In this document: piece after piece, positions 34,115 through 60,882 of the stretch
Layout of the letters: every line of letters starts with the position of its first letter
Position numbering within the stretch: position 1 is the stretch's first letter
Source: Fibrobacterales bacterium
GTDB lineage: Bacteria; Fibrobacterota; Fibrobacteria; Fibrobacterales; CADBQJ01
Direction: 5' to 3'
Assembly (NCBI GenBank): GCA_017650365.1
Contig: JAGCEZ010000055.1
Location: forward strand, 7,453-71,452
Length of the DNA: 64,000 nucleotides
Made by a program: the position numbers and the translations under genes
The notes under the pieces: model-generated
Told to the model about the DNA's origin: nothing
The model's input: the letters and a program-made list of their open reading frames with translations, nothing else
Database searches by the model: none

Positions 34115-34122
34115 GAAATCTA
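34115..34122 (-). promoter_or_regulatory. -7 box TAGATTTC for PFOR
   Basis: Minus-strand TTAGATTTCGG, 68 nt upstream of ATG 34046. Same octamer as upstream of both GH18 genes. Confidence 0.5.
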
Positions 34123-45335: not shown

Positions 45336-46523
45336 ATGACCGCTCGCAATTCGCTTCTCTCCCTCGCCGCCGCCCTCGCGCTCGGCTGCCTCGTCTCCTG
45401 CGGAGACTCCACGGGCGGATCCGGCGGATCGAACGGTTCGGGCAGCGTCTCCGGCGTCAAAAGCAGCATCAAGGTCGTGGGCGACACCATCCGCTACACC
45501 GAAGAGCGGACCGTCAAGATCTACTCCGTCGACGAAGAGGCGCGCGTCATGCTCGCCAGATCGCCCCAGGAGAACTACTGCGTCCGCGAAGACGGAGTCC
45601 TGTCGTGGGAGACCGTGAAGGAACTCCCCGACACGATGACGCTCTCATACAGCTTCGGCACGATCCCCGGCGAACTCGTCGGGTTCCTGGAGCAGAATGG
45701 CTACGACGTCGAAGGCCGGGTCGTGCTTTACCTGTTCGAAGACGAATACTACGCGAACATCTTCCTGGGGAGAGACTCCTCCACCATCTTCGGCGAATGG
45801 CAGGAGACCCCCTGCTACGTTGATCTGGACTACTACGGCGGCGGCGTCGGTTGCGACGACACCGTCGTCGAAGGGACCTTGAAGATCGGGAATGGCTCGG
45901 TGACGGAAAAGAGCACGACCAGCGTCTCCAAGAACTACTGGATGTACGACAAGCCCTTCCGCTCCGCCTTCATGGGCTCGCTCTACGAACGGCTGGCCAC
46001 GGGCCGCGCCTGGCCCCAGCTCTACCCGCACGAGATGTTTACGGAAGACTCCGTCGAAGTCCTGAAGGTCATGGGCGACTACATGATTGCGGTCAAGGAA
46101 CAGACGGCGAAGTCGCAGACGTTCGAAATCGACGGAAAGAGCTACACGGCCAGGATTCTCAAGAGTTCCGCCGACTACCGCGGCTACGCCGGCGGCCTGG
46201 ACTACTCCGTCGACATGGAAGTCGCCGACGAATCCGAGACCTGCCGGATCACCGTCCGCTCGATTTCCAAAGTCGACGGGGAATACTGCGCCGACAAGTA
46301 TATGGACAACTACGAATGGGACTCCGAGTGGGACTACGACGACAACGAGTTCGAATACGCGGACGCGATTCTCTGGAGCAACGCCGAAGAACACGGCGCC
46401 TGTCTGAAGCGCATCGCCGCCCGCGGGAGCGACGCCGCGCCCGCCGTCGCCAAGGCCGCCCGCAGGACCGCCGCGAACAAGATCCAGATCCGCCCCGCCA
46501 AGAAACGGCTCTTCGCCCGCTAG
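45336..46523 (+). CDS. Lipoprotein of unknown family (paralog A)
   Basis: MTARNSLLSLAAALALGCLVSC/GDS lipobox, Gly/Ser linker. Colinear with the downstream paralog (shared GDTIRY.EER, LGRDSS..FGEW, TPCY, EKSQTF, GGLDYS, ETCRI, GNEFEYAD, AC.KRIAA). AGAGG SD before ATG 45336. Confidence 0.7.
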   Translation: MTARNSLLSLAAALALGCLVSCGDSTGGSGGSNGSGSVSGVKSSIKVVGDTIRYTEERTVKIYSVDEEARVMLARSPQENYCVREDGVLSWETVKELPDTMTLSYSFGTIPGELVGFLEQNGYDVEGRVVLYLFEDEYYANIFLGRDSSTIFGEWQETPCYVDLDYYGGGVGCDDTVVEGTLKIGNGSVTEKSTTSVSKNYWMYDKPFRSAFMGSLYERLATGRAWPQLYPHEMFTEDSVEVLKVMGDYMIAVKEQTAKSQTFEIDGKSYTARILKSSADYRGYAGGLDYSVDMEVADESETCRITVRSISKVDGEYCADKYMDNYEWDSEWDYDDNEFEYADAILWSNAEEHGACLKRIAARGSDAAPAVAKAARRTAANKIQIRPAKKRLFAR

Positions 46524-46553: not shown

Positions 46554-47687
46554 ATGTCGATGAACATGCGCAGACTTTCCCTCTCCCTCGCCGGCGCGCT
46601 CGCGCTCGGCGCCCTCGTCTCCTGCGGCGACTCCGGCAGCGGCTCCTCCTCCGGCGAAGGCGGATCCGGCGGCGGTTCGGGCGCCTCCTCCGGAGACGTC
46701 AAGCGGTCCGTCGAGATCAAAGGCGACACCATCCGCTACGCCGAGGAGCGCGGCGCGAAGGTCTTCGCGCACGACGAGTCCGCGCGCGTCCTCTCGGTCG
46801 CCTCGCCCGTCGACGAGTACTGCGTCCTCGAAGGCGCCTCCGTCTCCTGGAAGGCCGTGCGGGAATATCCCGACACGACGACGTTCTCCTGGTCCTTCGG
46901 CGCGGTCACGACCGAGATGGCCGGCATCCTCAAGGGGCTGGGCTACGACGTCGACGGCAAGGTCCTCCTCGTCCTGGAGGAAGCCGGGTTCGAGGGCCAG
47001 GGCGACATCCTGCTGGGCCGCGACTCCTCCTCCGTCTTCGGCGAATGGGCCTACACGCCCTGCTACACGGACGCAAGCGGCGGCTTCCGCTGCTCCAACC
47101 GCCACGTCGAGGGAAGCCTGAAGATCGGCAAGAGCTCCATGACGCGGAAGGAGTCCTACGACGTCGCCAAGGGCGACTACCTCTACGACGACCCCTTCGG
47201 GTCGCGCTTCATGAGCCTTCTCTACGACAACCTCGCCGGCGGCAACTACTTCGCCGAGCTCGAGGCGGGCGACCTCTTCCTGGAGGACACCGGGGCGGTC
47301 GCGCGCAGCGTCGCGAACGACGGCGTCGAGATCACGGCGCGGGCGGAGAAGTCGCAGACGTTCAAGATCGGGCTGAAGACCTACACGGTCGAAGTCCTCA
47401 AGAGCTCCGGCGAGTTCCGGAAGGCGACCGGCGGGCTCGACTACTCCGCGGTCGTCGAAGTCTCCGACGGATCAGAGACCTGCCGGATCGACATCCGCTC
47501 GGTCACCGCGGTCGGCGAAGACCTCTGCGCCGGCAAGAACATGGATGGTTTCAAGTGGAGCCGCGGCGAGGACGTCGACGGGAACGAGTTCGAATACGCG
47601 GACGGAATCGTCCTGGGCGACGCCGCCGCGCACGAAGCCTGCATGAAGCGCATCGCCGCGATCGGTCCCGACCCGGCCGGGCGCTAG
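46554..47687 (+). CDS. Lipoprotein of unknown family (paralog B)
   Basis: ..RRLSLSLAGALALGALVSC/GDS lipobox. Same conserved blocks as paralog A. Start ambiguous among ATG 46554/46560/46566, with a GGAG at 46550-46553 favouring 46560. Confidence 0.7.
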   Translation: MSMNMRRLSLSLAGALALGALVSCGDSGSGSSSGEGGSGGGSGASSGDVKRSVEIKGDTIRYAEERGAKVFAHDESARVLSVASPVDEYCVLEGASVSWKAVREYPDTTTFSWSFGAVTTEMAGILKGLGYDVDGKVLLVLEEAGFEGQGDILLGRDSSSVFGEWAYTPCYTDASGGFRCSNRHVEGSLKIGKSSMTRKESYDVAKGDYLYDDPFGSRFMSLLYDNLAGGNYFAELEAGDLFLEDTGAVARSVANDGVEITARAEKSQTFKIGLKTYTVEVLKSSGEFRKATGGLDYSAVVEVSDGSETCRIDIRSVTAVGEDLCAGKNMDGFKWSRGEDVDGNEFEYADGIVLGDAAAHEACMKRIAAIGPDPAGR

Positions 47688-52862: not shown

Positions 52863-53072
52863 ATGAAGACGCAGGAACTCCGTACTCTCGTCGAAGCCTC
52901 CTCCGCCACGATGGTCGCCAGCCATCAGGCCAAGCTTCGGATGTACCGGAACGAAATCGACCGGCTGATCGCCCAGCCCGCCGCGCCCGCCTTCCCGACG
53001 CCCCGGGCCCGCCGCAGGGCGCTGAGCCGTTTCGTTCCGCAGTTCGTCCTCTTCTGGATTCTCTTCCGCTGA
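52863..53072 (+). CDS. Candidate small (69 aa) leaderless protein with hydrophobic C-terminal tail
   Basis: The ATG is exactly 5 nt after TATTTTTA (52850-52857), the same geometry as hslO and DJ-1. About 85% G/C at third codon positions. MKTQELRTLVEASSATMVASHQAKLRMYRNEIDRLIAQ..FVPQFVLFWILFR. No homolog recognised. Confidence 0.4.
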   Translation: MKTQELRTLVEASSATMVASHQAKLRMYRNEIDRLIAQPAAPAFPTPRARRRALSRFVPQFVLFWILFR

Positions 53073-53166: not shown

Positions 53167-54009
53167 ATGAGCAGCCAGCACCGTTTTCCGCGTTTCCGTC
53201 CCGTTTTCGGCGTTTTGGCCCTTCTCTGCGCCTTCGCCTGGGGAGCGGAACCCGCTTCGGAACCCGTTTCCGGGGCCGCGGACATCGACGGCGGCTCCAC
53301 GAATCCGGCCGCCGCCCAGGCCGAAAAGAAGTCCTTCCGCACCTATCTCTTCGAGGATCTCCTCCCCGTTTCGCCCGAAGAGTACATCTCCAAGGGGCGG
53401 ATCACGGCGGGCACCCAGGTCTCGCTGATGCAGGCGACCATCAGCGACCTCGACATCTCGCTGGCCGACATCTACGAACTGGACGGCTACATCCTGAACG
53501 TGGAGGCCTTCGGCGCCTGGTTCTTCCGCGACGCCGTGGCCGTGGGGCTCCGCGCCGGCTACAGCCGCACCGAATACACCTTCGACTTCGAGGTGAACGA
53601 GGACCTGACCGACCTGGCGCAGGACCGCGACTTCGTCAGCAACGGCTTCTCGCTCACCCCCTACCTGCGCTACTACCTCAAGCTCTTCCCCACGAGCGCG
53701 TTCTACTTCTTCAGCGAAATCGACCTGACCTACGAATACTCCACCGGTCTTTCCGCGGTGGACGACGGGGAGAACCTCGACAAGACGCGCACCACGACGC
53801 ACGTCATCGAGGCGGGCGTCAACCCCGGCGTGGCGATCTTCATCCTGAAGGGGTTCGCCTTCGAGACCTCCGTCGGCCTGCTGGGCCTGAGCACCGGCAT
53901 CCGCGAAATCGAGACCAACGGGACGTCGAAGAGCGAGATCGTCACGAACATCATCAACTTCAGGATCAACCTGCTGGCGCTCAACTTCTCGCTGGCCTAC
54001 TACTTCTAG
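53167..54009 (+). CDS. Small outer-membrane beta-barrel protein
   Basis: Signal peptide ..VFGVLALLCAFAWG/AE. Alternating amphipathic strands. C-terminal ..NFSLAYYF with a terminal aromatic residue, typical of OMP barrels. Confidence 0.65.
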   Translation: MSSQHRFPRFRPVFGVLALLCAFAWGAEPASEPVSGAADIDGGSTNPAAAQAEKKSFRTYLFEDLLPVSPEEYISKGRITAGTQVSLMQATISDLDISLADIYELDGYILNVEAFGAWFFRDAVAVGLRAGYSRTEYTFDFEVNEDLTDLAQDRDFVSNGFSLTPYLRYYLKLFPTSAFYFFSEIDLTYEYSTGLSAVDDGENLDKTRTTTHVIEAGVNPGVAIFILKGFAFETSVGLLGLSTGIREIETNGTSKSEIVTNIINFRINLLALNFSLAYYF

Positions 54010-54021
54010 GGAGGGGGAACG

Positions 54022-55314
54022 ATGACCGCGCGCACACGTCTTCTTCTCCCCGCGGTTTCCGCCGCGCTCGCCCTGCTCTGCGCCCTGGCCGCCTGCTCCG
54101 ACGGGACCGGCGCCGAAGAGAAGCGCGAACCTGTCGAGGCGAGCGTCTCCCTCGGCAAGACCGAGATCTCCGACTTCTCCGAATTCCGCGTGGAGTGCGC
54201 CGTGAAGGGAAAGGCCGCGGGCGACACCGTCAAGCTGGCGTTCGAGCTGCCCGAGGGCTTCTCGCTCCGCTACGCCGCCGACGACGACCCCTTCGACCCC
54301 GAGCTGGGCGGGACTCTCCGCGGCGGCGACAAGGTCGTCCTCTCCGACAAGCTGCATCTGGTGCTGCTCGACGAACTCGACGTGATCGTCTCCATCATCG
54401 TCGTCAAGCCCGAGAAGAAGCCGAGCTCCTCCGCGAAGGGAAGTTCTGAAAAGGGCTCCTCCGGAAAGGGCGACTCCTCCGGCTCCGGCTCGTCCGAAGA
54501 GGGCGGTTCCTCCGGCGAGGGAGGTTCCTCCGATTCCGGCTCCTCCGTCGAGGAATCCTCCGGCTCCGGGTCCTCCGAAGCCCTCTCCTCCTCCGAAGAG
54601 AGCAGCTCCTCGTCGGAGGCCGTTCCCGAGCCGCAGCTTCCCGGCTGGACCGCCGCGGCCTGGGGCACCACATCGAACGCGATGGCGACCGAGAAGGACA
54701 ATCGGATCATTGGCTCGGGCGACCATTACCAGGGAAGCGCGAACGCGCAGATCTCCGCCGACCGGATCGTCCTGACCACCGCCGCCTCCAAAAAGCGCAC
54801 CTGCGGCATCGGCATCTGCGGCAGCTGGAGCAGCCGCAACTCCACCGGACTGCTCTTCACCGGATCGGTCTCCGCCGGCGACGCGCAGGCGATGTACAAC
54901 GCCAGCGGGAGCGCATCGGACTTCAGGGGAATCCTCTCCTTCTCCGGCATCCCCTTCGCCGGGAAGCCCGCGGCGTTCGAAGCGAGCTACTCCTACGAGC
55001 ACGTGAACGCGAACGGGCAGCGCGGGCTGATCGTCGTTCTGCTCCTGAACGGCTCCACGCTCGTGGGCTCCGCCGCCAAGGAGATTGGAAGCGCGGAAAC
55101 CCAGCAGAACCTCCAGGTGCCCTTCGTCTACGGCGACGGCGCCTGGTACGACTCCTCGCTCCTCGTCCCCGCCGGTCTGCAGCGCGGCACCGGCTCGGAA
55201 GAGGTGACCTCGGCCGTCGCCCTCTTCGCGTCGAGCGGGACCGGCGCGGGCGACGTGGGCGCGGGATCGTCGTTGACCGTCTCCTCCTTCCGTCTGATCT
55301 ACGGAGGGCCCTAG
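54022..55314 (+). CDS. Lipoprotein with Ser/Gly-rich linker and C-terminal PCMD-like (putative carbohydrate metabolism) domain
   Basis: LCALAAC/SDG lipobox. About 65-aa S/G/E linker. The C-terminal region shares ..GIPFAGKPAAFEASYSY.. and a ..LTVSSFRLIYG ending with the downstream PCMD-like gene. GGAGGGGG SD. Confidence 0.68.
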   Translation: MTARTRLLLPAVSAALALLCALAACSDGTGAEEKREPVEASVSLGKTEISDFSEFRVECAVKGKAAGDTVKLAFELPEGFSLRYAADDDPFDPELGGTLRGGDKVVLSDKLHLVLLDELDVIVSIIVVKPEKKPSSSAKGSSEKGSSGKGDSSGSGSSEEGGSSGEGGSSDSGSSVEESSGSGSSEALSSSEESSSSSEAVPEPQLPGWTAAAWGTTSNAMATEKDNRIIGSGDHYQGSANAQISADRIVLTTAASKKRTCGIGICGSWSSRNSTGLLFTGSVSAGDAQAMYNASGSASDFRGILSFSGIPFAGKPAAFEASYSYEHVNANGQRGLIVVLLLNGSTLVGSAAKEIGSAETQQNLQVPFVYGDGAWYDSSLLVPAGLQRGTGSEEVTSAVALFASSGTGAGDVGAGSSLTVSSFRLIYGGP

Positions 55315-55316
55315 CC

Positions 55317-57200
55317 ATGAAACGGTTCCCGGCCCTTCTCTCCGCGGCGGCGCTGCTCCTTCTGGGGGCGTGCGAAGCCGCCTACGACACCTTCGGCGAC
55401 TCGGACTACAACGCGCTCGACGACTTCGGCTACGCCGAGCAGGAGGGGACGACCAGCGTCGACCTCGAGGCGCACCTCTTCCGCTCCTTCGTGACCGACT
55501 CCGTCCGCCCCGACTCGCTCACGCTCCGCTCGCTGAAGAAGAGCTCGCTCTCCTCGGTCCACCGCGTGCTCAGCAAGATCGACGGCGTGCCCGCCGACTC
55601 GGCGGAACGCGACTCGCTGGCCCGCTGGGTGGCGATCGCGAAGCGGCCCTACGAAAAGGGCGACCGCGTGCAGCTGCCGAAGAGCGGAAAGATCTACCTG
55701 GTCTCGGTCTCGGAATCGGGCCGGCGCGACCTCTGGCTCTCGCAGGTGGAGGTGACCCTGGAAGGGGGCGAGGGCGAAGGCGGCGGAAACGGCGGCGAAG
55801 GCGGGAGCGGCGGCCAGGGCGGCGGCGACAAGCCCAGGCCGAAGAGCGGCGACGTCTCGCTCTCCGTGACGCTCGTCGGGCAAGTGGGCGCGAACGTCTT
55901 CCCCGGCGGCGAAGGGCTGCCCGACACGCTCGCGGCGATGGTCCCCGCCGGCGTGCCGCTGACCGCGCTCGAAGTGGCTTCCGTCAAGCTGGGCGCAGGC
56001 GCCGCCGTCGAGCCCGACCCCTACGGCGTCTCCGACTTCTCCTCGCCCGTCGCGTTCCGCGTGACCGCCGAAGACGGCGCGACGAAGGACTACCTGCTGG
56101 TGGCGGCCAACGCGCCCGAGGACTTCGTGGCCTCGCCTCCCCCGCGGCTCCTCTCCTTCTCCAGCGGGACGAACGCCGTGACGATCGACACCGTCGCCCG
56201 CACGGTCTTCGTCGAGACGGAGTACCTGGCCGACCTGAAGGCCGTGCCCGTCTCCTTCTCGCTGAGCGAGAACGCGACGGCGACCGGGCTCGTCTCCGGC
56301 GGAACCGCCGACCTCTCGCGCCCGGTCGTCCTGACGGTGGCCAACGACATGGGGCTGACCGCGGAATACCGCGTGCAGGCAGGCTGCCAGATTCCCTTCT
56401 CGGACTTCGACAGCTGGACCTCCACCAACCGGACCGTGATGACGGGCCATTGGACCGTCCCGGGGAGCTCCGCGACCTTCGACACCCTCTGGGACAACGG
56501 CAACCAGTACGGCGTGGCGCTCGTGGGCGACATCATCCTCTCGCAGAGGCAGAGCAGCGGAAGCCGCGTCTACGCCCATCTGGAGACCGTCAACAAGGTC
56601 AAGCTGGCCAGCGGGAACCTCTTCACCGCGAAAATGAACCCCAAGGGAGTGGGCGCGCTCAACATGTCCTCGTACAAGGACGGCAACGAGCTGATCGACT
56701 TCGGGCGCCCCTTCGCCGGCCGTCCGACCGCGATCGAGTTCACGGCGAAGTACTCCCCCGCGGGACAGGACTCCTGCGACCTCTACGTGCTGCTGGAGAA
56801 CCGGGGCGACCGCAACAGCAACGTCGGCCGCAGCACCGCGCAGAAGAACTACCTCGTGGCCTCGGCCTGGTACCGCTCCACCACCGACCACGACGCCTCG
56901 CTCCCCGACGTGGAGTCGATTTCCGAACCGGACGCCGACGGGTTCCGCACGATCCGCCTCCGGCTGAAATACGGCGAGCCGCTGGCGGGCTCCCCCATCT
57001 TCCGCTCGGCCGCCTTCGCGACCTCGCTCGAAAACAAGAACGGGATCTTCAACGCCGTCACCCGGGGCGACGCCTACGCCGACTACGACGTGACCCACAT
57101 CCGCGTCGTGATGGCCTCGAGCGCCGACGGCAACCACTACAACGGTTCCGCGGGATCCGCGCTCGACGTGGACGAAGTGCGCCTGGTCTACGGCGACTGA
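55317..57200 (+). CDS. Lipoprotein with two cadherin-like beta-sandwich repeats and a C-terminal PCMD domain
   Basis: LLLLGAC/EA lipobox. ..SDFSSPVAFRVTAEDGATKDYLLV.. and ..LSRPVVLTVANDMGLTAEYRVQ.. repeats. PCMD pattern IPFSDFDSW..LWDNGNQ..LFTAKMN..FGRPFAGRPTAIEFTAKYSP..LDVDEVRLVYG. Confidence 0.75.
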   Translation: MKRFPALLSAAALLLLGACEAAYDTFGDSDYNALDDFGYAEQEGTTSVDLEAHLFRSFVTDSVRPDSLTLRSLKKSSLSSVHRVLSKIDGVPADSAERDSLARWVAIAKRPYEKGDRVQLPKSGKIYLVSVSESGRRDLWLSQVEVTLEGGEGEGGGNGGEGGSGGQGGGDKPRPKSGDVSLSVTLVGQVGANVFPGGEGLPDTLAAMVPAGVPLTALEVASVKLGAGAAVEPDPYGVSDFSSPVAFRVTAEDGATKDYLLVAANAPEDFVASPPPRLLSFSSGTNAVTIDTVARTVFVETEYLADLKAVPVSFSLSENATATGLVSGGTADLSRPVVLTVANDMGLTAEYRVQAGCQIPFSDFDSWTSTNRTVMTGHWTVPGSSATFDTLWDNGNQYGVALVGDIILSQRQSSGSRVYAHLETVNKVKLASGNLFTAKMNPKGVGALNMSSYKDGNELIDFGRPFAGRPTAIEFTAKYSPAGQDSCDLYVLLENRGDRNSNVGRSTAQKNYLVASAWYRSTTDHDASLPDVESISEPDADGFRTIRLRLKYGEPLAGSPIFRSAAFATSLENKNGIFNAVTRGDAYADYDVTHIRVVMASSADGNHYNGSAGSALDVDEVRLVYGD

Positions 57201-57294
57201 CCGGACCCGGCGGGGACTTTCCGAAATCCTTTTTTCGGCCTACTCGAACGGCTCCGCAAGCCCGGTTTTACAAAGCCCGGGCCCGCGCAAGGGG

Positions 57295-57302
57295 TAGATT
57301 TC
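57295..57302 (+). promoter_or_regulatory. -7 box TAGATTTC for GH18 paralog 1
   Basis: GGGGTAGATTTCGG, 34 nt before the ATG. Conserved with the paralog 2 upstream region. Confidence 0.5.
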
Positions 57303-57336
57303 GGTCAAAGACCTCCCGCAGCCCAAGGGGACAGAC

Positions 57337-58890
57337 ATGAAATTCCCGGCCCTTTCCGCCGCCACCGTCCTTTCCGCCCTGCTCGCGTCCGCGGCGCTGA
57401 CCGCCTGCGGCGACTCGGGGACCTCCAACTCCGGCGGTTCCGGCTCCGGCGACGCGAAGTTCCGGGCCGAGGAGTACTGCTTCCTCAACGCGGACCTCGC
57501 GGCGTCGCTCGGCGTTTCGGACTGCGCCGCCCTGACCGACGAGCAGCGCGCGGAGTTCGAAGGACACTACGAGGCGTCCGGCAAGGCCGAAGGGCGCTGG
57601 TGGAACGTCCGGGCGCAATGCTCGGACCGTCTGGAAGCCGACGTCCCGCTCCCCTGCTCCGCCGACTCGATCGCGGCGCTCCGCAAGTGCTCCGACGACG
57701 GATGCCCGGAGGCGCTGGAGGCCTGCATGGCCGGCGTCTCCGCCCTCTCGTCCGCCCTCCCCTGCGACTTCGGGACGGTGCAGTACTTCCGCGCCTGCCA
57801 GGCGGCGAAAAGCGCGCTGTGCCTCGGGCTGACCATGCGCGACGCCGACTACCTCGCAGCCAGCTGGCTCCTCGAAGGCAAAAAGGAGGAATGGGCCTAC
57901 ACGAACGTCCCCGCGGACTTCAGCGCCTCCGGCTACTGCGACCTCAACCCCGCGGTCAAGGCGATCTACGGCCCGGACTGCGACGAGCGGACCGTCTCCT
58001 GGCACTACGTCCTCTTCGGAAAGCCGCAGGGGCTGCAGTACAAGACCGAGGAGATCGTCGATCCCTACGCGGACTACCGGGCGATTGCGAACGAACCCGC
58101 GTTCAAGATCGTCGGCTACGTCCAGACCGGCACCTCGGGCGGATGGAACGCGGACCACTACAAACACGCGACGCACCTCGTGGTCTTCGGACCGGAGACG
58201 AACGCGAACGGCGACATCGTCTGGAAGGGAACCTCCCCCGAAGACCTGAAGGCCTGGGGCTACTACGGATCCAAGACCGACACCCGCGTCATGGTCGCGA
58301 TCGGCGGATGGGGCAAGTCGAACGGCTTCACGGCCATGGCGAACAGCGCGACGGCGCGCGAGAACTTCGTGAACCAGCTGGCCGCGCTCAAGGACTACCA
58401 CGTCTACGGCGTCGACATCGACTGGGAGAACGACGGCAACACCTGGCCCTACCCCGGTTCCGGCGTCAACGCCCTGCTGTCCGACATGGCGGCGAAGCTG
58501 CATCCGCTGGGGATGAAGATCAGCATCGCCCTCGCCTCCACGACCGCGGGCGGGCTGAACGCGACCGGGGCCGCCGCCGTCGACTGGATCAACGTGATGT
58601 GCTACGACGGCAGCAACCACGGGACCTTCGCCAAGATCGCCTCCTGCAAGGAGACCTACGCCGGATACCAGTCGAAATCGGTGATCGGCGTGCCGTTCTA
58701 CGTCGGCAACACCGCGTACAGCAAGGGCGCCTCGAGCGAAGTGGTCGGCCTGGACGGGATGGCGACGGCGACGAACTCCATCAAGAGCTGGGGCCCCGGC
58801 ATCATGATCTGGGACCTCAGCCACGACAAGACCGATCCGGAATCCTCGCTGTTGGTCAAAATCGCCGAAACGGCGGGCTACAATCCCTAA
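57337..58890 (+). CDS. GH18-like (chitinase/endo-beta-N-acetylglucosaminidase family) lipoprotein, paralog 1
   Basis: AALTAC/GDS lipobox. Cys-rich N-terminal module. GH18 core ..VMVAIGGWGKSNGF.. and YGVDIDWEN (DxDxE catalytic motif), ..WINVMCYD.., ..GIMIWDLSHD.. Confidence 0.8.
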   Translation: MKFPALSAATVLSALLASAALTACGDSGTSNSGGSGSGDAKFRAEEYCFLNADLAASLGVSDCAALTDEQRAEFEGHYEASGKAEGRWWNVRAQCSDRLEADVPLPCSADSIAALRKCSDDGCPEALEACMAGVSALSSALPCDFGTVQYFRACQAAKSALCLGLTMRDADYLAASWLLEGKKEEWAYTNVPADFSASGYCDLNPAVKAIYGPDCDERTVSWHYVLFGKPQGLQYKTEEIVDPYADYRAIANEPAFKIVGYVQTGTSGGWNADHYKHATHLVVFGPETNANGDIVWKGTSPEDLKAWGYYGSKTDTRVMVAIGGWGKSNGFTAMANSATARENFVNQLAALKDYHVYGVDIDWENDGNTWPYPGSGVNALLSDMAAKLHPLGMKISIALASTTAGGLNATGAAAVDWINVMCYDGSNHGTFAKIASCKETYAGYQSKSVIGVPFYVGNTAYSKGASSEVVGLDGMATATNSIKSWGPGIMIWDLSHDKTDPESSLLVKIAETAGYNP

Positions 58891-58934
58891 AACGCCCTCA
58901 AAAGAGGACGGGAACAGGTGAATTTTGCCTTTAC
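58891..58934 (+). other. Decayed relic of the DTW-gene 5' end, carried along by the GH18 tandem duplication
   Basis: 'aacgcc..gGTGAATTTTGCCTTTAc' after the GH18-1 stop aligns with 'aacgct..cGGGAATTTTGCCTTTGc' after the GH18-2 stop, which is the real DTW N-terminus REFCLC. The register is offset by one codon (30 vs 33 nt from the stop). Confidence 0.55.
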
Positions 58935-58961
58935 CCGGCGAATTCGGCCGCGGCGAGGGGC

Positions 58962-58969
58962 TAGATTTC
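58962..58969 (+). promoter_or_regulatory. -7 box TAGATTTC for GH18 paralog 2
   Basis: GGGGCTAGATTTCC, 38 nt before the ATG. Confidence 0.5.
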
Positions 58970-59007
58970 CAGAAGATGCACATCCCGCCTTTCCAAGGGG
59001 GAGAACG

Positions 59008-60882
59008 ATGAAACACGCGCTCATTTCCGGTTCCCTCGGCCTGTTGGCCGGCGCAGGCCTTCTCGTCGCCTGCGGCGAGTCGGGCGGCTCCTCGCCCACC
59101 CCCGTCCAAGGGGGGATCGACTCCTGCGTCGGCGAATACGCCGGGCAGATTCCCGCCGACTTCTCGGCCAGCGGCTACGCCGCGGCCAATCCCGACCTCG
59201 CCGCAGCCATCTGCATCGACGGCGCCTGCGACGGCGCCGACGAATGCCGCGACCTCGTCCGGCACTGGGTCAACTACGGCCAGGGCGAAGGCCGGACCTA
59301 CGACGCCCCCGTCGTCCCCTCCTCCGAGACGGGCTCGTCGGAAGGCGGGAGCTCCGAAGGGGGCAATTCCGCCGGAACGCCGTCCAGCTCCTCGATCAAG
59401 GCCTTCTCCTCCGCGGCCCCGGGCACGCTGCCCGCGGAATTCCGCGCCGAGGAGTACTGCTTCCTCAACACCGACGTCGCGGGCGTTCTCGGCGTCTCGA
59501 ACTGCACGGGCCTGACCGACGGACAGCGCGGGCAGCTCGAAAACCACTACCTCTCCTCCGGCGCCTCCGAAGGGCGCTGGTGGAACGTCGAAGTGCAGTG
59601 TTCGCAGCGCGCCCTCTACGAAGCGCAGCTTCCCTGCTCCGCCGACTCGATCGCCGCGCTCCGCAAATGCACCGACGCGGAATGCCAGTCCAAGCTCTCG
59701 GCCTGCATGGCGGGCGTCCACGAACTCGCCGCCTCCGAGCTGCCCTGCGACTTCGGCAAGGTGAACTACTTCCGCGCCTGCCAGAACGCGCAGAGCAAGC
59801 TCTGCCTCGCGTCGACCTACACCGAAACCGACTACCTCGCCGCCAGCTGGTTCCTCGAAGGGCGCGAGAACGGCTGGGCCTACACGAACGTCCCCGCGGA
59901 CTTCAGCGCCTCCGGCTACTGCGACCTCAACCCCTCGGTCAAGGCGATCTACGGCCCGACCTGCGACCAGCAGACCGCCGCCTGGCACTACGTCCTCTTC
60001 GGCAAGTCGCAGAACCTGCAGTACAAGAGCCAGGAGATCGTCGACCCCTTCGCCGACTACACGCCCATCACCACCGAGCCGTCGTTCAAGATCGTCGGCT
60101 ATGTCCAGAGCGGCACCAACGGCGGATGGAACGCGGACTACTACAAGAAGGCGACCCACCTGGTCATCTTCGGACCAGAGGTGGATGCCAATGGCAACAT
60201 CGTCTGGATAGGAACGAGCAAGGACGACCTGAAGTACTGGGCCTACCAGGGATCCAAGACCGACACCCGCATCATGGTCGCCATCGGCGGTGCGGATGGT
60301 ACTGCCCGGGGTGGTCGAAACAAGTCCGCCAACTTCTCCGCCATCGCCAATGCCGGTGCTGCCCAGACCAACTTCCTCAACCAACTCGCCGAGCTCAAGG
60401 ACTACTGGGTCTGGGGCGTGGACATCGACCGCGAAGACGTCTGGCCCTACGGAGCCGGACTGGATCAGCTTGTTCCCGCGATCTACAACAAAATCCACCC
60501 GCTGGGGATGAAGGTCACCGTCGCCACGGGCAGCCAAAACAACGGCCTCGGCGCCTGGGGCAGCGTCGACTGGGTCAACGTGATGTGCTACGACTTCAAC
60601 GGCAACGCGTCGAGTTGCCCCGGCACCTGCATGAACTCCAGCAGCTACCCGACCCACAAAAGCCAGACCGCCATCGGCGTCCCCTTCTACACAGGCGCCG
60701 GCTCATACCTTTCCGGCGCCACCAACGATCTGGTCAGCTTGAGCGGCATCGCCACGGCCACCTCCAACATCAAGAACAACGGCTTCGCGGGCATCATGAT
60801 CTGGGACCTCTCCCAGGACAAGACCGACGCGAGCAACTCGTTGCTCTACAAGATCGCCGCGACGGCGGGGTACAATCCCTGA
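59008..60882 (+). CDS. GH18-like lipoprotein, paralog 2 (extra N-terminal repeat plus Ser/Gly linker)
   Basis: GLLVAC/GES lipobox. ATG 59008 follows AAGGGGGAGA. GH18 core ..IMVAIGG.., WGVDIDRED (DxDxE retained, W->R), ..WVNVMCYD.., ..GIMIWDLSQD.. Confidence 0.8.
   Translation: MKHALISGSLGLLAGAGLLVACGESGGSSPTPVQGGIDSCVGEYAGQIPADFSASGYAAANPDLAAAICIDGACDGADECRDLVRHWVNYGQGEGRTYDAPVVPSSETGSSEGGSSEGGNSAGTPSSSSIKAFSSAAPGTLPAEFRAEEYCFLNTDVAGVLGVSNCTGLTDGQRGQLENHYLSSGASEGRWWNVEVQCSQRALYEAQLPCSADSIAALRKCTDAECQSKLSACMAGVHELAASELPCDFGKVNYFRACQNAQSKLCLASTYTETDYLAASWFLEGRENGWAYTNVPADFSASGYCDLNPSVKAIYGPTCDQQTAAWHYVLFGKSQNLQYKSQEIVDPFADYTPITTEPSFKIVGYVQSGTNGGWNADYYKKATHLVIFGPEVDANGNIVWIGTSKDDLKYWAYQGSKTDTRIMVAIGGADGTARGGRNKSANFSAIANAGAAQTNFLNQLAELKDYWVWGVDIDREDVWPYGAGLDQLVPAIYNKIHPLGMKVTVATGSQNNGLGAWGSVDWVNVMCYDFNGNASSCPGTCMNSSSYPTHKSQTAIGVPFYTGAGSYLSGATNDLVSLSGIATATSNIKNNGFAGIMIWDLSQDKTDASNSLLYKIAATAGYNP

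What the first reader, a model, noticed from the sequence alone, without database searches (positions are those of the whole stretch)
53167..60882. A SusC/SusD-less surface glycan locus: small beta-barrel OMP, two PCMD-like lipoproteins and two GH18-like lipoproteins
Five consecutive same-strand genes all encode exported proteins. One is an OMP ending in ..AYYF. The other four are lipoproteins with clean lipoboxes. Two carry a C-terminal PCMD (putative carbohydrate metabolism) domain, a family typical of Bacteroidota polysaccharide loci and still without a defined function. One of these also has cadherin-like sandwich repeats. Two carry GH18 catalytic cores that retain the DxDxE motif. No TonB-dependent transporter or SusD homolog is present. 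This may be an alternative cell-surface system for capturing and trimming chitin, N-glycan or peptidoglycan-type GlcNAc polymers.
Basis: partly seen in the sequence, partly recalled or inferred. Interest (0 to 1): 0.55.

Follow-up and report, generated by a model that had tools for sequence, protein, structure and literature searches.

The report
Barrel–PCMD lipoprotein module beside chitinases
In a high-GC gut Fibrobacterales genome, an ancient and uncharacterised gene cassette (a small outer-membrane barrel plus sugar-binding-like PCMD lipoproteins) sits next to two lineage-specific chitinase-type lipoproteins; the genes are real, but they look like two separate units rather than one GlcNAc-harvesting machine.

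Summary
All five genes are real and exported. They comprise a small beta-barrel OMP (53167-54009), two PCMD lipoproteins (54022-55314, 55317-57200) and two 61%-identical GH18 lipoproteins (57337-58890, 59008-60882).

The organism is a high-GC Fibrobacterales MAG, not Bacteroidota, so the absence of SusC/SusD is expected.

The locus splits into two evolutionary units.
- **Unit A** is the tightly packed OMP-PCMD-PCMD operon. In 70 of 70 Fibrobacter-type genome loci the OMP is followed by a PCMD gene, and none has a related GH18 within 8 kb. In 5 of 5 remote OMP homologues, at least two from named Bacteroidota, a PCMD lipoprotein follows directly, among unrelated genes. I found no description of this FCB-wide OMP+PCMD cassette in the paper library.
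- **Unit B** is a tandem GH18 pair. Each has a compact chitinase-type TIM barrel (closest fold FjChiB) with the DxDxE, MxYD and W motifs intact. Each also has an unannotated Cys-rich helical N-domain and its own promoter-like box. More distant relatives of these GH18s stand alone beside uvrA or among housekeeping genes.

The adjacency of A and B holds only in this clade. The 'one GlcNAc capture-and-trim system' reading is therefore possible but weakly supported. The 8-10-strand barrel is too small to import glycans.

The parts
52863..53072 (+). Small ORF (69 aa) with a hydrophobic C-terminal tail, upstream of the operon. Whether it belongs to the system is uncertain.
   Evidence: It is called as a gene in identical contigs. 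Similar small ORFs lie upstream of the triad in L006 (79 aa) and directly upstream of a lone GH18 in L012 (68 aa). It has no Pfam match.
53167..54009 (+). g1: small (8-10 strand) outer-membrane beta-barrel with a signal peptide and a C-terminal ..AYYF beta-signal. It is the conserved partner of PCMD lipoproteins.
   Evidence: It is 47-55% identical to Fibrobacter orthologues. Remote homologues occur in Bacteroidota.
54022..55314 (+). g2: lipoprotein (lipobox LAAC) with an N-terminal domain, a ~75-aa Ser/Gly/Glu-rich linker and a divergent C-terminal PCMD jelly-roll. It is the accessory paralogue, present in 55 of 70 Fibrobacter-type loci.
   Evidence: (hhalign 99.9%). It starts 12 nt after the g1 stop codon.
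55317..57200 (+). g3: lipoprotein (lipobox LGAC) with a conserved post-Cys motif (CEAAYDTFGDSDY), an N-terminal domain, a Gly/Glu linker, Ig-like (DUF5018-like) domain(s) and a C-terminal PCMD domain. It is the universal PCMD partner of the barrel.
   Evidence: A g3-like gene follows the OMP in 70 of 70 loci. The post-Cys motif is shared with the PCMD partners in loci L094-L098. It starts 2 nt after the g2 stop codon.
57211..57233 (+). Weak terminator-like hairpin plus T-run, 11 nt after the g3 stop codon.
   Evidence: The number of such sites in the region is not above chance (7 found, 6.9 expected), so this is only suggestive.
57295..57302 (+). TAGATTTC box, 35 nt upstream of the g4 start codon. 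It is a candidate promoter -7-type element.
   Evidence: There are three copies in 64 kb against 0.3 expected, and all three lie upstream of gene starts.
57337..58890 (+). g4: lipoprotein (lipobox LTAC) with a Cys-rich all-alpha N-terminal domain (~aa 40-240) and a compact chitinase-type GH18 TIM barrel (aa 255-517, motif YGVDIDWE).
   Evidence: pLDDT 87.6; best TM-score hits 6xyz FjChiB and 3co4.
58962..58969 (+). Second TAGATTTC box, 39 nt upstream of the g5 start codon.
59008..60882 (+). g5: tandem paralogue of g4 (61% identity). It is a lipoprotein (lipobox LVAC) with an extra N-terminal repeat, a Ser-rich linker, the Cys-rich helical domain and a GH18 domain (motif WGVDIDRE).
   Evidence: Gene callers on identical contigs give 624 aa.

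Best explanation
The region holds two separable units that became neighbours in one high-GC Fibrobacterales clade.

**Unit A (g1-g2-g3, one operon).** This is the Fibrobacterales version of an old two-gene cassette, small beta-barrel OMP plus PCMD lipoprotein, found across the Fibrobacterota and Bacteroidota.
- Shown: the pairing and the gene order are conserved across phyla. The barrel is OmpA/OmpW-sized. g2 and g3 are lipoproteins with acidic residues after the Cys. Each carries a linker or Ig-like stalk and a C-terminal CBM-like jelly-roll, the PCMD domain.
- Inferred: BAM inserts the barrel. The lipoproteins are flipped to the cell surface and held at the barrel. The conserved post-Cys motif C-x-D-x-D/E-Y-F-G and the unusually conserved barrel strands form the contact. 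The PCMD pocket binds a glycan ligand.
- On this reading the cassette is a constitutive surface binding or adhesion device, not an importer.

**Unit B (g4, g5).** These are two tandemly duplicated, separately promoted lipoprotein GH18 enzymes of the compact endo-chitinase type. Each carries a new Cys-rich helical N-domain.
- Inferred: they cut chitin or chitooligosaccharide-like beta-1,4-GlcNAc glycans at the cell surface. Rumen fungal cell walls are one possible substrate.
- Any cooperation between A and B is clade-specific and unproven.
For: **Taxon.** P0001 is 100% identical and named Fibrobacterales. The GC content is 0.67 against a median of 0.50 for Fibrobacter-type loci.

**Unit A packing.** The intergenic gaps are 12 nt and 2 nt.

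**Synteny.**
- A genome scan with the OMP profile gave 80 loci, nearly all named Fibrobacter, Fibrobacteraceae or Hallerella.
- All 70 loci with at least 4.5 kb downstream have a g3-like gene after the OMP. Of these, 55 also have a g2-like gene, and none has a g4/g5-like GH18.

**Deep conservation.**
- An exhaustive profile search found 199 cluster representatives at E<=1e-10. Named members come from Flammeovirga, Aestuariibaculum, Persicobacter, Prolixibacteraceae and Alistipes sp. ZOR0009.
- All 5 remote loci examined have OMP followed by PCMD (353-415 aa) with gaps of 7-108 nt. Their neighbourhoods are unrelated and hold no SusC/SusD, TonB-dependent transporter or glycoside hydrolase families.
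- The N-terminal motif and the C-terminal ..LxY ending are shared.

**Folds.**
- The g1 model is a small barrel with 19-24-residue strands, and it resembles OmpA, OmpW and TtoA.
- g2 against g3 gives hhalign probability 99.9%.
- g3 matches BT2081 (3hbz). BT2081 is an Ig-like domain plus a CBM6/11/16/29-like jelly-roll with a conserved pocket and a Ca site (PMC2954218).

**Unit B.**
- g4 and g5 are 61% identical.
- GH18 is above the Pfam threshold, and G358, D360, D362, E364, M421, Y423 and W492 are invariant.
- Sequence and fold matches in the PDB are all chitinases. The best TM-score is to FjChiB (6xyz), a predicted surface lipoprotein that acts endo on chitooligosaccharides.
- Full-length relatives number only 16 clusters. 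The 45% and 37% relatives stand alone, beside uvrA or among housekeeping genes.
- The TAGATTTC box lies upstream of both genes.
Against: - No experiment or transcript data exist. Surface exposure, the barrel-lipoprotein contact and the PCMD ligand are all inferred.
- The rules for lipoprotein surface export are established for Bacteroidota, not for Fibrobacterota.
- The PCMD family has never been shown to bind a glycan. The BT2081 paper only proposes it.
- Adjacency of unit A and GH18 persists in relatives at ~54-56% identity (L006 and GCA_016648615.1). This could reflect selection for co-function rather than inherited synteny.
- The terminator-like hairpin after g3 is weak, and such sites are no more frequent than chance. 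Read-through transcription into g4 and g5 therefore cannot be excluded.
- The g1 model has only moderate confidence (pLDDT 71), and its strand count is ambiguous (8-10).
Confidence: 0.55

Rival explanations
1. All five genes form one functional cell-surface system for GlcNAc polymers. The PCMD lipoproteins capture chitin, N-glycan or peptidoglycan fragments, the GH18s trim them, and the OMP admits the products.
For: - All five genes are on the same strand, and all products are exported.
- PCMD is CBM-like.
- The GH18 catalytic motifs are intact.
- The adjacency is kept in clade relatives at ~54-56% identity.
- In Bacteroidota PULs, surface glycan-binding lipoproteins and endo-acting lipoprotein glycoside hydrolases are typically neighbours.
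Against: - The OMP+PCMD unit lacks GH18 in 70 of 70 Fibrobacter-type loci and in 5 of 5 remote loci.
- GH18 relatives occur without the unit.
- g4 and g5 have separate promoter-like boxes and gaps of 117-136 nt.
- An 8-10-strand barrel is too narrow for oligosaccharide import.
- The window holds no regulator, transporter or GlcNAc catabolic genes.
- Fibrobacteria are reported to lack the means to use chitin hydrolysis products (PMC4704652).
Confidence: 0.2
2. The OMP+PCMD cassette does not handle glycans at all. One possibility is that the small barrel is a dedicated export or anchoring factor for its neighbouring surface lipoprotein, analogous in logic to Slam and its adjacent surface lipoproteins. 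The other is an OmpW-like channel for a small hydrophobic ligand that the deep PCMD pocket captures. In either case the GH18 genes are unrelated neighbours.
For: - The gene pairing is strict, with gaps of 7-108 nt across phyla, in housekeeping-type and varying neighbourhoods that hold no glycoside hydrolase or SusC/SusD families.
- The best TM-score matches of g1 include the hydrophobic-ligand channels OmpW and OprG.
- The barrel sequence is unusually conserved (47-55% identity, many invariant strand residues).
- The post-Cys motif is conserved.
- BT2081 has a deep, conserved, solvent-accessible pocket with no demonstrated ligand.
Against: - The PCMD core is most similar to CBMs and to GH16.
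- Fibrobacter versions carry long Ig-like and Ser-rich stalks of up to ~1000 aa. These suit reaching outward to polymers rather than feeding a channel.
- The barrel has no similarity to the Slam/DUF560 14-strand barrel.
- Other PCMD paralogues are reported in SusC-containing PULs.
Confidence: 0.17
3. The whole region is an envelope-maintenance locus. The lipoproteins face the periplasm, the PCMD domains bind the cell's own envelope glycans, and the GH18s act as autolysin-like enzymes on the cell's own wall or on GlcNAc-containing envelope polymers.
For: - The whole window is housekeeping and includes the dcw cluster, an S41 peptidase and an acyltransferase-3.
- Remote cassettes lie next to OmpA, Omp85, SpoIID, and glycosyltransferase and epimerase genes.
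Against: - The GH18 fold and sequence neighbours are chitinases, not peptidoglycan hydrolases.
- Acidic residues follow the lipobox Cys in g2-g5, and there are long Ser-rich linkers. Both are typical of surface-exposed lipoproteins in FCB bacteria (the Bacteroidota export signal is from my own knowledge).
- The Cys-rich N-domain suggests an extracytoplasmic, probably external, setting.
Confidence: 0.08

Closest known systems
BT2081 / PCMD family (PF13201; PDB 3HBZ, also 3S30, 4HET, 4JRL)
   Same: - g3 matches the Pfam family above threshold and matches 3HBZ directly.
- The architecture is the same: a lipoprotein signal, Ig-like domain(s) and a C-terminal jelly-roll ending ..L-x-Y.
- The Ca-ligand Asp (BT2081 D351) is conserved as D619.
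   Different: - g3 is longer, with an extra N-domain and a linker.
- The proposed catalytic Asp338 of BT2081 is Asn606 in g3.
- BT2081 paralogues were reported with SusC-like genes in PULs. Here the partner is a small barrel.
- The function of the family has still not been tested.
Surface glycan-binding lipoproteins (SGBPs) of Bacteroidota PULs and utilisomes, such as the levan SGBP BT1761
   Same: - They are surface lipoproteins built from Ig-like domains plus a beta-sandwich binding domain, and they are encoded next to an outer-membrane barrel.
- BT1761 is listed as a BT2081 paralogue.
- g3 has a weak match to 8a9y_T (E 0.02).
   Different: - There is no SusC (a 22-strand TonB-dependent barrel), no SusD and no regulator.
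- The partner barrel has 8-10 strands and cannot import glycans.
FjChiB (Fjoh_4560, PDB 6XYZ), the GH18 of the Flavobacterium johnsoniae chitin utilization locus, and 3CO4 (B. thetaiotaomicron chitinase)
   Same: - These are the best structural matches to the g4 GH18 domain (TMt 0.72, rmsd 3.3-3.5 A).
- FjChiB has a single compact GH18 domain and is a predicted surface lipoprotein, as g4 is.
- FjChiB is an endo-acting enzyme that prefers chitooligosaccharides.
   Different: - Sequence identity is only ~18-21%.
- g4 and g5 carry a ~200-aa Cys-rich helical N-domain with no Pfam family.
- The locus has no CusC/CusD, GH20 or NagB genes.
Small outer-membrane barrels (OmpA transmembrane domain, OmpW/OprG, TtoA; Pfam OMP_b-brl_2 and DUF3575)
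   Same: - g1 shares the fold class and size, a signal peptide and a C-terminal aromatic beta-signal.
   Different: - All Pfam scores are below threshold.
- g1 has very long strands and strong sequence conservation.
- It is strictly linked to a PCMD lipoprotein gene.
Slam (DUF560) and its adjacent surface-lipoprotein genes in Neisseria (from my own knowledge; not tested here beyond fold)
   Same: - The genetic logic is the same: a barrel gene is conserved next to the gene of a surface lipoprotein.
   Different: - Slam is a 14-strand barrel with a TPR domain.
- g1 shows no such match.
- No export role has been shown for g1.

Membership tests
GH18 (CAZy; Pfam PF00704) | Pfam match above the gathering score | tested here: met
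   g4 scores 74.9 bits and g5 scores 50.7 bits, against a cut-off of 29.6.
GH18 (CAZy; Pfam PF00704) | (beta/alpha)8 barrel fold | tested here: met
   The AlphaFold model of g4 has pLDDT 87.6. Foldseek gave 426 PDB matches at E<=1e-3, and every listed top hit is a GH18 chitinase-family protein.
GH18 (CAZy; Pfam PF00704) | Catalytic DxxDxDxE motif, plus the MxYD motif and the conserved Trp needed for substrate-assisted catalysis | tested here: met
   - D360, D362 and E364 are invariant, as are M421 and Y423, with D424 nearly invariant, and W492.
- The first Asp of DxxDxDxE is Tyr in g4 (YGVDIDWE) and Trp in g5 (WGVDIDRE).
- Enzyme activity itself was not tested.
GH18 chitinase type, as opposed to endo-beta-N-acetylglucosaminidase type | Closest sequence and structure relatives are chitinases | tested here: met
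   All 45 PDB sequence hits and the top 50 fold hits are chitinases, chitinase-like proteins or one GH18 N-acetylglucosaminidase. No EndoH, EndoF, EndoS or EndoBT appears among them. Substrate specificity cannot be settled in silico.
PCMD (PF13201) | Pfam match above the gathering score | tested here: met
   g3 scores 71.1 bits against a cut-off of 28 and covers profile positions 1-234 of 234.
PCMD (PF13201), for g2 | Pfam match above the gathering score, or profile-level homology | tested here: inconclusive
   In Pfam, g2 scores 18.4 bits, below the cut-off of 28. The g2-family profile against the g3-family profile gives hhalign probability 99.9 and E 7.8e-35 over 274 columns. g2 is therefore homologous, but it is a divergent member by Pfam's own rule.
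PCMD (PF13201) | Structural Ca-site Asp near the C-terminus, and the pocket residues of BT2081 | tested here: inconclusive
   - D351 of BT2081 corresponds to D619 in g3, which is nearly invariant in the family. It is Ser in the window's g2.
- E336 corresponds to D604, and D338 corresponds to N606.
- The alignment covers only the last ~32 residues.
Polysaccharide utilization locus (PUL) | Adjacent SusC-like TonB-dependent transporter and SusD-like lipoprotein | tested here: not met
   There are no TonB-dependent receptor or SusD families in any gene of the window. The organism is Fibrobacterales.
Polysaccharide utilization locus (PUL) | Linked sensor or regulator (HTCS, ECF/anti-sigma, SusR) | tested here: not met
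   None was found in the 64 kb.
Bacterial lipoprotein (g2-g5) | Signal peptide with a lipobox [LVI][ASTVI][GAS]C | tested here: met
   The lipoboxes are LAAC, LGAC, LTAC and LVAC. The Cys is invariant in alignments A2 and A3. Lipidation and surface exposure were not tested.
Small beta-barrel OMP (OmpA-TM/OmpW class; PF13568) | Signal peptide, C-terminal aromatic beta-signal, and an antiparallel barrel of 8-10 strands | tested here: met
   - The protein ends ..AYYF.
- The model has 9-10 strand elements.
- Foldseek matches OmpA, OmpW and TtoA with probability 1.0 and E of 2e-5 to 8e-4.
- The Pfam score is below threshold (20.1 bits against a cut-off of 27).
OMP+PCMD cassette (defined here) | A g1-type barrel gene immediately 5' of a PCMD lipoprotein gene on the same strand | tested here: met
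   This holds in the window (12-nt gap), in 70 of 70 Fibrobacter-type loci and in 5 of 5 remote loci, at least two of them from named Bacteroidota.
Slam-type lipoprotein translocon (DUF560) | 14-strand DUF560 barrel with a TPR domain | tested here: not met
   g1 has no DUF560 or TPR match, and its model is a small barrel.

The most novel reading that the evidence does not exclude
The small barrel and its neighbouring PCMD lipoprotein form a previously undescribed two-component outer-membrane device shared by Fibrobacterota and Bacteroidota. The barrel would be the dedicated docking or export partner of the lipoprotein, contacted through the conserved post-Cys C-x-D-x-D/E-Y-F-G motif. PCMD lipoproteins would then be a class of surface binding proteins that work independently of SusC/SusD. 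In this Fibrobacterales clade, the device has been placed directly upstream of new Cys-rich-domain chitinases, which may give a SusCD-free surface system acting on fungal chitin.
Probability: 0.35. Interest if true: 0.65.

Novelty: new variant of a known kind. Interest (0 to 1): 0.45.

Why it matters
- **An anchor for an uncharacterised family.** PCMD (the BT2081 family) has a solved structure but no tested function since 2010. A strictly conserved small-barrel partner across two phyla gives a concrete, testable hypothesis: a barrel-lipoprotein complex. It also gives tractable hosts, since Fibrobacter succinogenes and several cultured Bacteroidota carry the cassette.
- **Relevance to Fibrobacter biology.** For fibre-degrading Fibrobacterales, which lack Sus-type systems, the cassette is a candidate for how binding proteins are displayed on the cell surface.
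- **The GH18 enzymes.** The pair adds a narrow enzyme family with an unannotated Cys-rich helical domain. All Fibrobacteres carry GH18 genes of unclear role (PMC4704652). Surface chitinases in a gut Fibrobacterales could point to interaction with anaerobic fungi.
- **A caution for annotation.** Same-strand neighbours in a MAG are not automatically one system.

Tried and rejected
**Ideas rejected**
- g1 as a glycan porin or SusC substitute. Its model and fold matches are OmpA/OmpW-sized.
- GH18 as an endo-beta-N-acetylglucosaminidase of N-glycan PUL type. No ENGase appears among the sequence or fold neighbours.
- Cadherin-like repeats in g3. There is no such Pfam match, only a sub-threshold DUF5018 hit.
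- Membership in a PUL. There is no SusC, SusD or regulator.
- A known domain in the GH18 N-terminal region. No Pfam hit appears even at E<=10.

- The sigma-70 promoter scan found 0 sites, and terminator-like sites were at chance level.
- Literature searches for PCMD, PF13201, DUF5018, DUF3575 and BT2081 found no functional study.
- The NCBIfam scan gave nothing useful.

**Not attempted**
- I could not map the Fibrobacter succinogenes S85 orthologues to locus tags, so published proteomes were not checked.

Full report
**1. What is in the sequence**

The window has 62-73% GC. Between 53167 and 60882 there are five + strand ORFs with coding-type codon bias (GC3 0.87-0.94).
- g1 (53167-54009, 280 aa) has a cleavable signal peptide and ends ..LAYYF.
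- g2 (54022-55314, 430 aa), g3 (55317-57200, 627 aa), g4 (57337-58890, 517 aa) and g5 (59008-60882, 624 aa) have lipoboxes LAAC, LGAC, LTAC and LVAC.
- Gene callers on identical public contigs give the same five products.

Pfam results:
- PCMD in g3: 1.5e-19, full profile.
- A sub-threshold Ig-like DUF5018 stretch in g3.
- A sub-threshold PCMD hit in g2 (1.9e-3).
- GH18 in g4 (1.2e-20) and g5 (2.7e-13).
- Only weak OMP_b-brl_2, OmpA_like and DUF3575 hits in g1.

Profile-profile comparison of a g2-family alignment with a g3-family alignment gives probability 99.9% and E 7.8e-35 over the C-terminal 274 columns. g2 is therefore a genuine but divergent PCMD protein.

The GH18 motifs are YGVDIDWE in g4 and WGVDIDRE in g5. 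D360, D362, E364, M421, Y423 and W492 are invariant in a 36-sequence alignment.

The exception is the 'cadherin-like' label, for which I found no support.

**2. Whose genome it is**

- g3 is 100% identical to a protein deposited as 'MAG: PCMD domain-containing protein [Fibrobacterales bacterium]'. Every source-named homologue of g1 and g3 in the homology searches is from Fibrobacter or Fibrobacterales.
- Identical contigs come from public metagenome assemblies. Many related loci come from rumen, yak, sheep, goat and horse-faeces MAGs.
- The lineage has 65-67% GC, against a median of 50% in 79 Fibrobacter-type loci.
- This is not a Bacteroidota genome, so the lack of SusC/SusD is the expected state rather than an anomaly.
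- The rest of the 64 kb is housekeeping: FtsX, TsaD, DnaE, MutL, PmbA/TldD, the dcw cluster, PFOR, the nuo operon, an S41 peptidase, HSP33, HAD and UvrA. It holds no TonB-dependent transporter, SusD, regulator or GlcNAc catabolic gene.

**3. The locus is two units**

*Unit A: g1-g2-g3*

The genes are packed with gaps of 12 and 2 nt.

A scan of one genome per GTDB species with the g1 profile returned 80 loci. Nearly all are named Fibrobacter, Fibrobacteraceae or Hallerella, and a few are evidently mislabelled bins. I ran tblastn with the five window proteins against these loci:
- Every one of the 70 loci with at least 4.5 kb downstream has a g3-like PCMD gene after the barrel.
- 55 of them also have a g2-like gene between the two.
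- 15 have the barrel followed directly by one PCMD gene of 540-590 aa.
- None has a g4/g5-like GH18 within 8 kb.
- In Fibrobacter the unit sits between a Fib_succ_major-domain gene and thioredoxin, HisF and PmbA genes.

An exhaustive profile search of 1.84 billion cluster representatives found 527 relatives of the barrel at E<=1e-3 and 199 at E<=1e-10. Named members are from Bacteroidota: Flammeovirga aprica, Aestuariibaculum, Persicobacter psychrovividus, Prolixibacteraceae, Alistipes sp. ZOR0009 and Bacteroidales MAGs.

I could look up five of these remote barrels (E 4e-32 to 5e-14).
- In all five, the next gene on the same strand, 7-108 nt downstream, is a PCMD protein of 353-415 aa.
- The surrounding genes are unrelated to one another and hold no SusC/SusD, TonB-dependent transporter or glycoside hydrolase families.
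- These PCMD partners are lipoproteins whose mature N-terminus reads C-I-D-W-D-Y-F-G, C-V-D-E-D-Y-F-G, C-S-R-E-D-Y-F-E and similar. The Fibrobacter g3 consensus is C-T-A-D-Y-D-T-F-G, and the window has C-E-A-A-Y-D-T-F-G.
- All of them end ..L-x-Y.

The g3 type is thus the universal partner, and g2 is a Fibrobacteraceae-level extra paralogue.

*Unit B: g4 and g5*

- They are 61% identical tandem paralogues.
- Only 16 clusters in 5.8 billion share the full-length architecture. Beyond them, identity drops abruptly to generic GH18 enzymes, many with CBM5/12 modules.
- A 56% relative (GCA_016648615.1) shows the same PCMD-GH18-GH18-DTW-UvrA order. A relative whose g3 homologue is 54% identical (L006) has a g4-like gene starting 137 nt after its g3 homologue.
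- The 45% relative lies directly between a small ORF and uvrA, with no barrel or PCMD genes. The 37% relative lies alone among housekeeping genes.
- The small ORF upstream of that lone GH18 resembles the 69-aa ORF upstream of g1 in the window. This suggests that unit A was inserted, or lost, between the small ORF and the GH18.
- g4 and g5 each follow a gap of 117-136 nt containing GGGG(T/C)TAGATTTC, 35-39 nt before the start codon. TAGATTTC occurs three times in the window against 0.3 expected. The third copy lies upstream of the PFOR gene.
- A weak hairpin plus T-run follows the g3 stop codon, but such sites are not enriched.

I infer that g4 and g5 have their own promoters. Read-through from g3 cannot be excluded.

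**4. Structures**

*g1.* The AlphaFold model (49-sequence alignment, pLDDT 71) is a barrel of 9-10 strand elements, most of them 19-24 residues long. It follows a ~55-residue low-confidence N-terminal segment. Foldseek against the PDB gives the OmpA transmembrane domain, TtoA, OmpW/OprG, Ail and NspA (E 2e-5 to 1e-3). The barrel therefore has 8-10 strands, with long strands that would project beyond the membrane. Sequence conservation is unusually high for a small barrel, at 47-55% identity between lineages with very different GC content and with many invariant strand residues. I read this as extensive protein contacts, which is an inference.

*g4.* The model (pLDDT 87.6) has an all-alpha N-terminal domain (aa ~40-240) with 12-14 family-conserved cysteines and no Pfam match. 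It also has a compact GH18 TIM barrel (aa 255-517) without a large alpha+beta insertion. The best structural matches by TM-score are FjChiB from the Flavobacterium johnsoniae chitin utilization locus (6xyz) and a B. thetaiotaomicron chitinase (3co4). All other top hits are chitinases or chitinase-like proteins. PDB sequence hits are likewise chitinases. FjChiB is a predicted surface lipoprotein that cleaves chitooligosaccharides in endo fashion and is weak on crystalline chitin (PMC5127042).

*PCMD.* The only characterised member, BT2081, is an Ig-like domain plus a jelly-roll resembling CBM6/11/16/29 and GH16. It has a structural Ca site and a deep conserved pocket, and its function was only proposed (PMC2954218). 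In g3 the Ca-ligand Asp is kept (D619). The proposed catalytic Asp338 is Asn (N606), which weakly favours binding over hydrolysis.

**5. How it most likely works**

*Shown*
- The barrel-PCMD pairing is ancient and strict.
- The barrel is too small to import oligosaccharides.
- g2 and g3 are lipoproteins with acidic residues after the Cys, flexible Ser/Gly/Glu linkers or Ig-like stalks, and CBM-like heads.
- g4 and g5 are chitinase-type GH18 lipoproteins with complete catalytic motifs.

*Inferred*
- g1-g3 form a constitutive surface complex in which the barrel docks, or helps to display, the PCMD lipoproteins, and these bind a glycan.
- g4 and g5 are surface endo-chitinases transcribed on their own.
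- Their position next to unit A in this clade may or may not reflect cooperation.
- Fibrobacteria are reported to carry GH18 genes but to lack the means to use chitin hydrolysis products (PMC4704652). One F. succinogenes GH18 was recorded as a cellulose-binding protein (PMC3079729). A non-nutritional role, such as acting on fungal walls on shared plant fibre, is therefore plausible but speculative.

*Rivals*
- A non-glycan role of the cassette, either as a dedicated lipoprotein export or anchor factor or as an OmpW-like small-ligand channel with a capturing lid.
- A periplasm-facing envelope-maintenance role.

**6. Comparison with known systems and novelty**

- The parts belong to known families: GH18, PCMD and small OMP barrels.
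- The locus fails the defining tests of a PUL.
- What appears undescribed in the literature I could search is the cross-phylum barrel+PCMD cassette and the GH18 subfamily with the Cys-rich helical domain.
- I rate the finding as a new variant of a known kind, with moderate interest (0.45).
- The most novel reading not excluded is that the cassette is a SusCD-independent surface display and binding device, here coupled to new chitinases. I give it a probability of about 0.35.

Noticed in passing
window 45336-46523 and 46554-47687 (+): Two tandem paralogous lipoproteins (48% identical, lipoboxes ..LVSC) have no Pfam family and only a weak NCBIfam 'SCO4651 lipoprotein' hit. Their function is unknown.
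   Followed up: partly
window 52863-53072 (+); L006 1666-1905; L012 3394-3600: A small ORF of 68-79 aa with a hydrophobic C-terminal tail lies upstream of the barrel-PCMD operon in the window and in L006. In a related lineage (L012) a similar ORF lies directly upstream of a lone GH18. This marks the point where the two units meet.
   Followed up: partly
window 57295-57302 (+), 58962-58969 (+), 34115-34122 (-): TAGATTTC occurs three times against 0.3 expected. Each copy lies 35-70 nt upstream of a gene start (g4, g5 and PFOR). It resembles the Bacteroidota-type TAnnTTTG -7 promoter box. No sigma-70-type promoters were found in the region.
   Followed up: partly
window 57442-58086 (g4 aa 36-250) and 59008-59760 (g5 N-terminus): This is an all-alpha domain with 12-14 conserved cysteines and no Pfam match. 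It contains 2 (g4) or 3 (g5) copies of a motif F-x-A-x-x-Y-C-x-x-N-x-D...H-Y-x-x-x-G-x-x-E-G. It may be a new carbohydrate-binding or targeting module.
   Followed up: partly
L094 8001-9831, L095 2953-4839, L096 6001-8133, L097 5001-6920, L098 5001-7029: In distant relatives, including named Bacteroidota such as Flammeovirga and Persicobacter, a barrel of 238-295 aa is followed by a PCMD lipoprotein of 353-415 aa. These PCMD partners share the post-Cys motif C-x-D-x-D/E-Y-F-G with the Fibrobacter proteins.
   Followed up: yes
Fibrobacter-type loci, e.g. L025 10673-13789, L077 10837-13935, L044 10354-13350: The g3-type PCMD lipoprotein ranges from ~540 aa to more than 1030 aa across Fibrobacter species. 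The extra length lies between the conserved N-terminal region and the C-terminal PCMD domain, and some members carry PF22243 and PF16341 domains. This suggests that stalk length is under diversifying pressure.
   Followed up: no
L012 5423-10792 (-): The UvrA-like gene next to the lone GH18 in this relative encodes 1789 aa, about twice the usual UvrA length, with duplicated UvrA domains.
   Followed up: no
whole window, compared with L015-L093: This Fibrobacterales lineage has 65-67% GC, while 79 Fibrobacter-type loci have a median of 50%. One close relative (L014, 87% OMP identity) is deposited as 'Fibrobacter succinogenes', which is probably a mislabel.
   Followed up: partly
window 60.9-61.7 kb: On identical contigs the gene callers place a DTW-domain gene after g5, with its 3' end overlapping the convergent uvrA gene by about 130 nt.
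   Followed up: no
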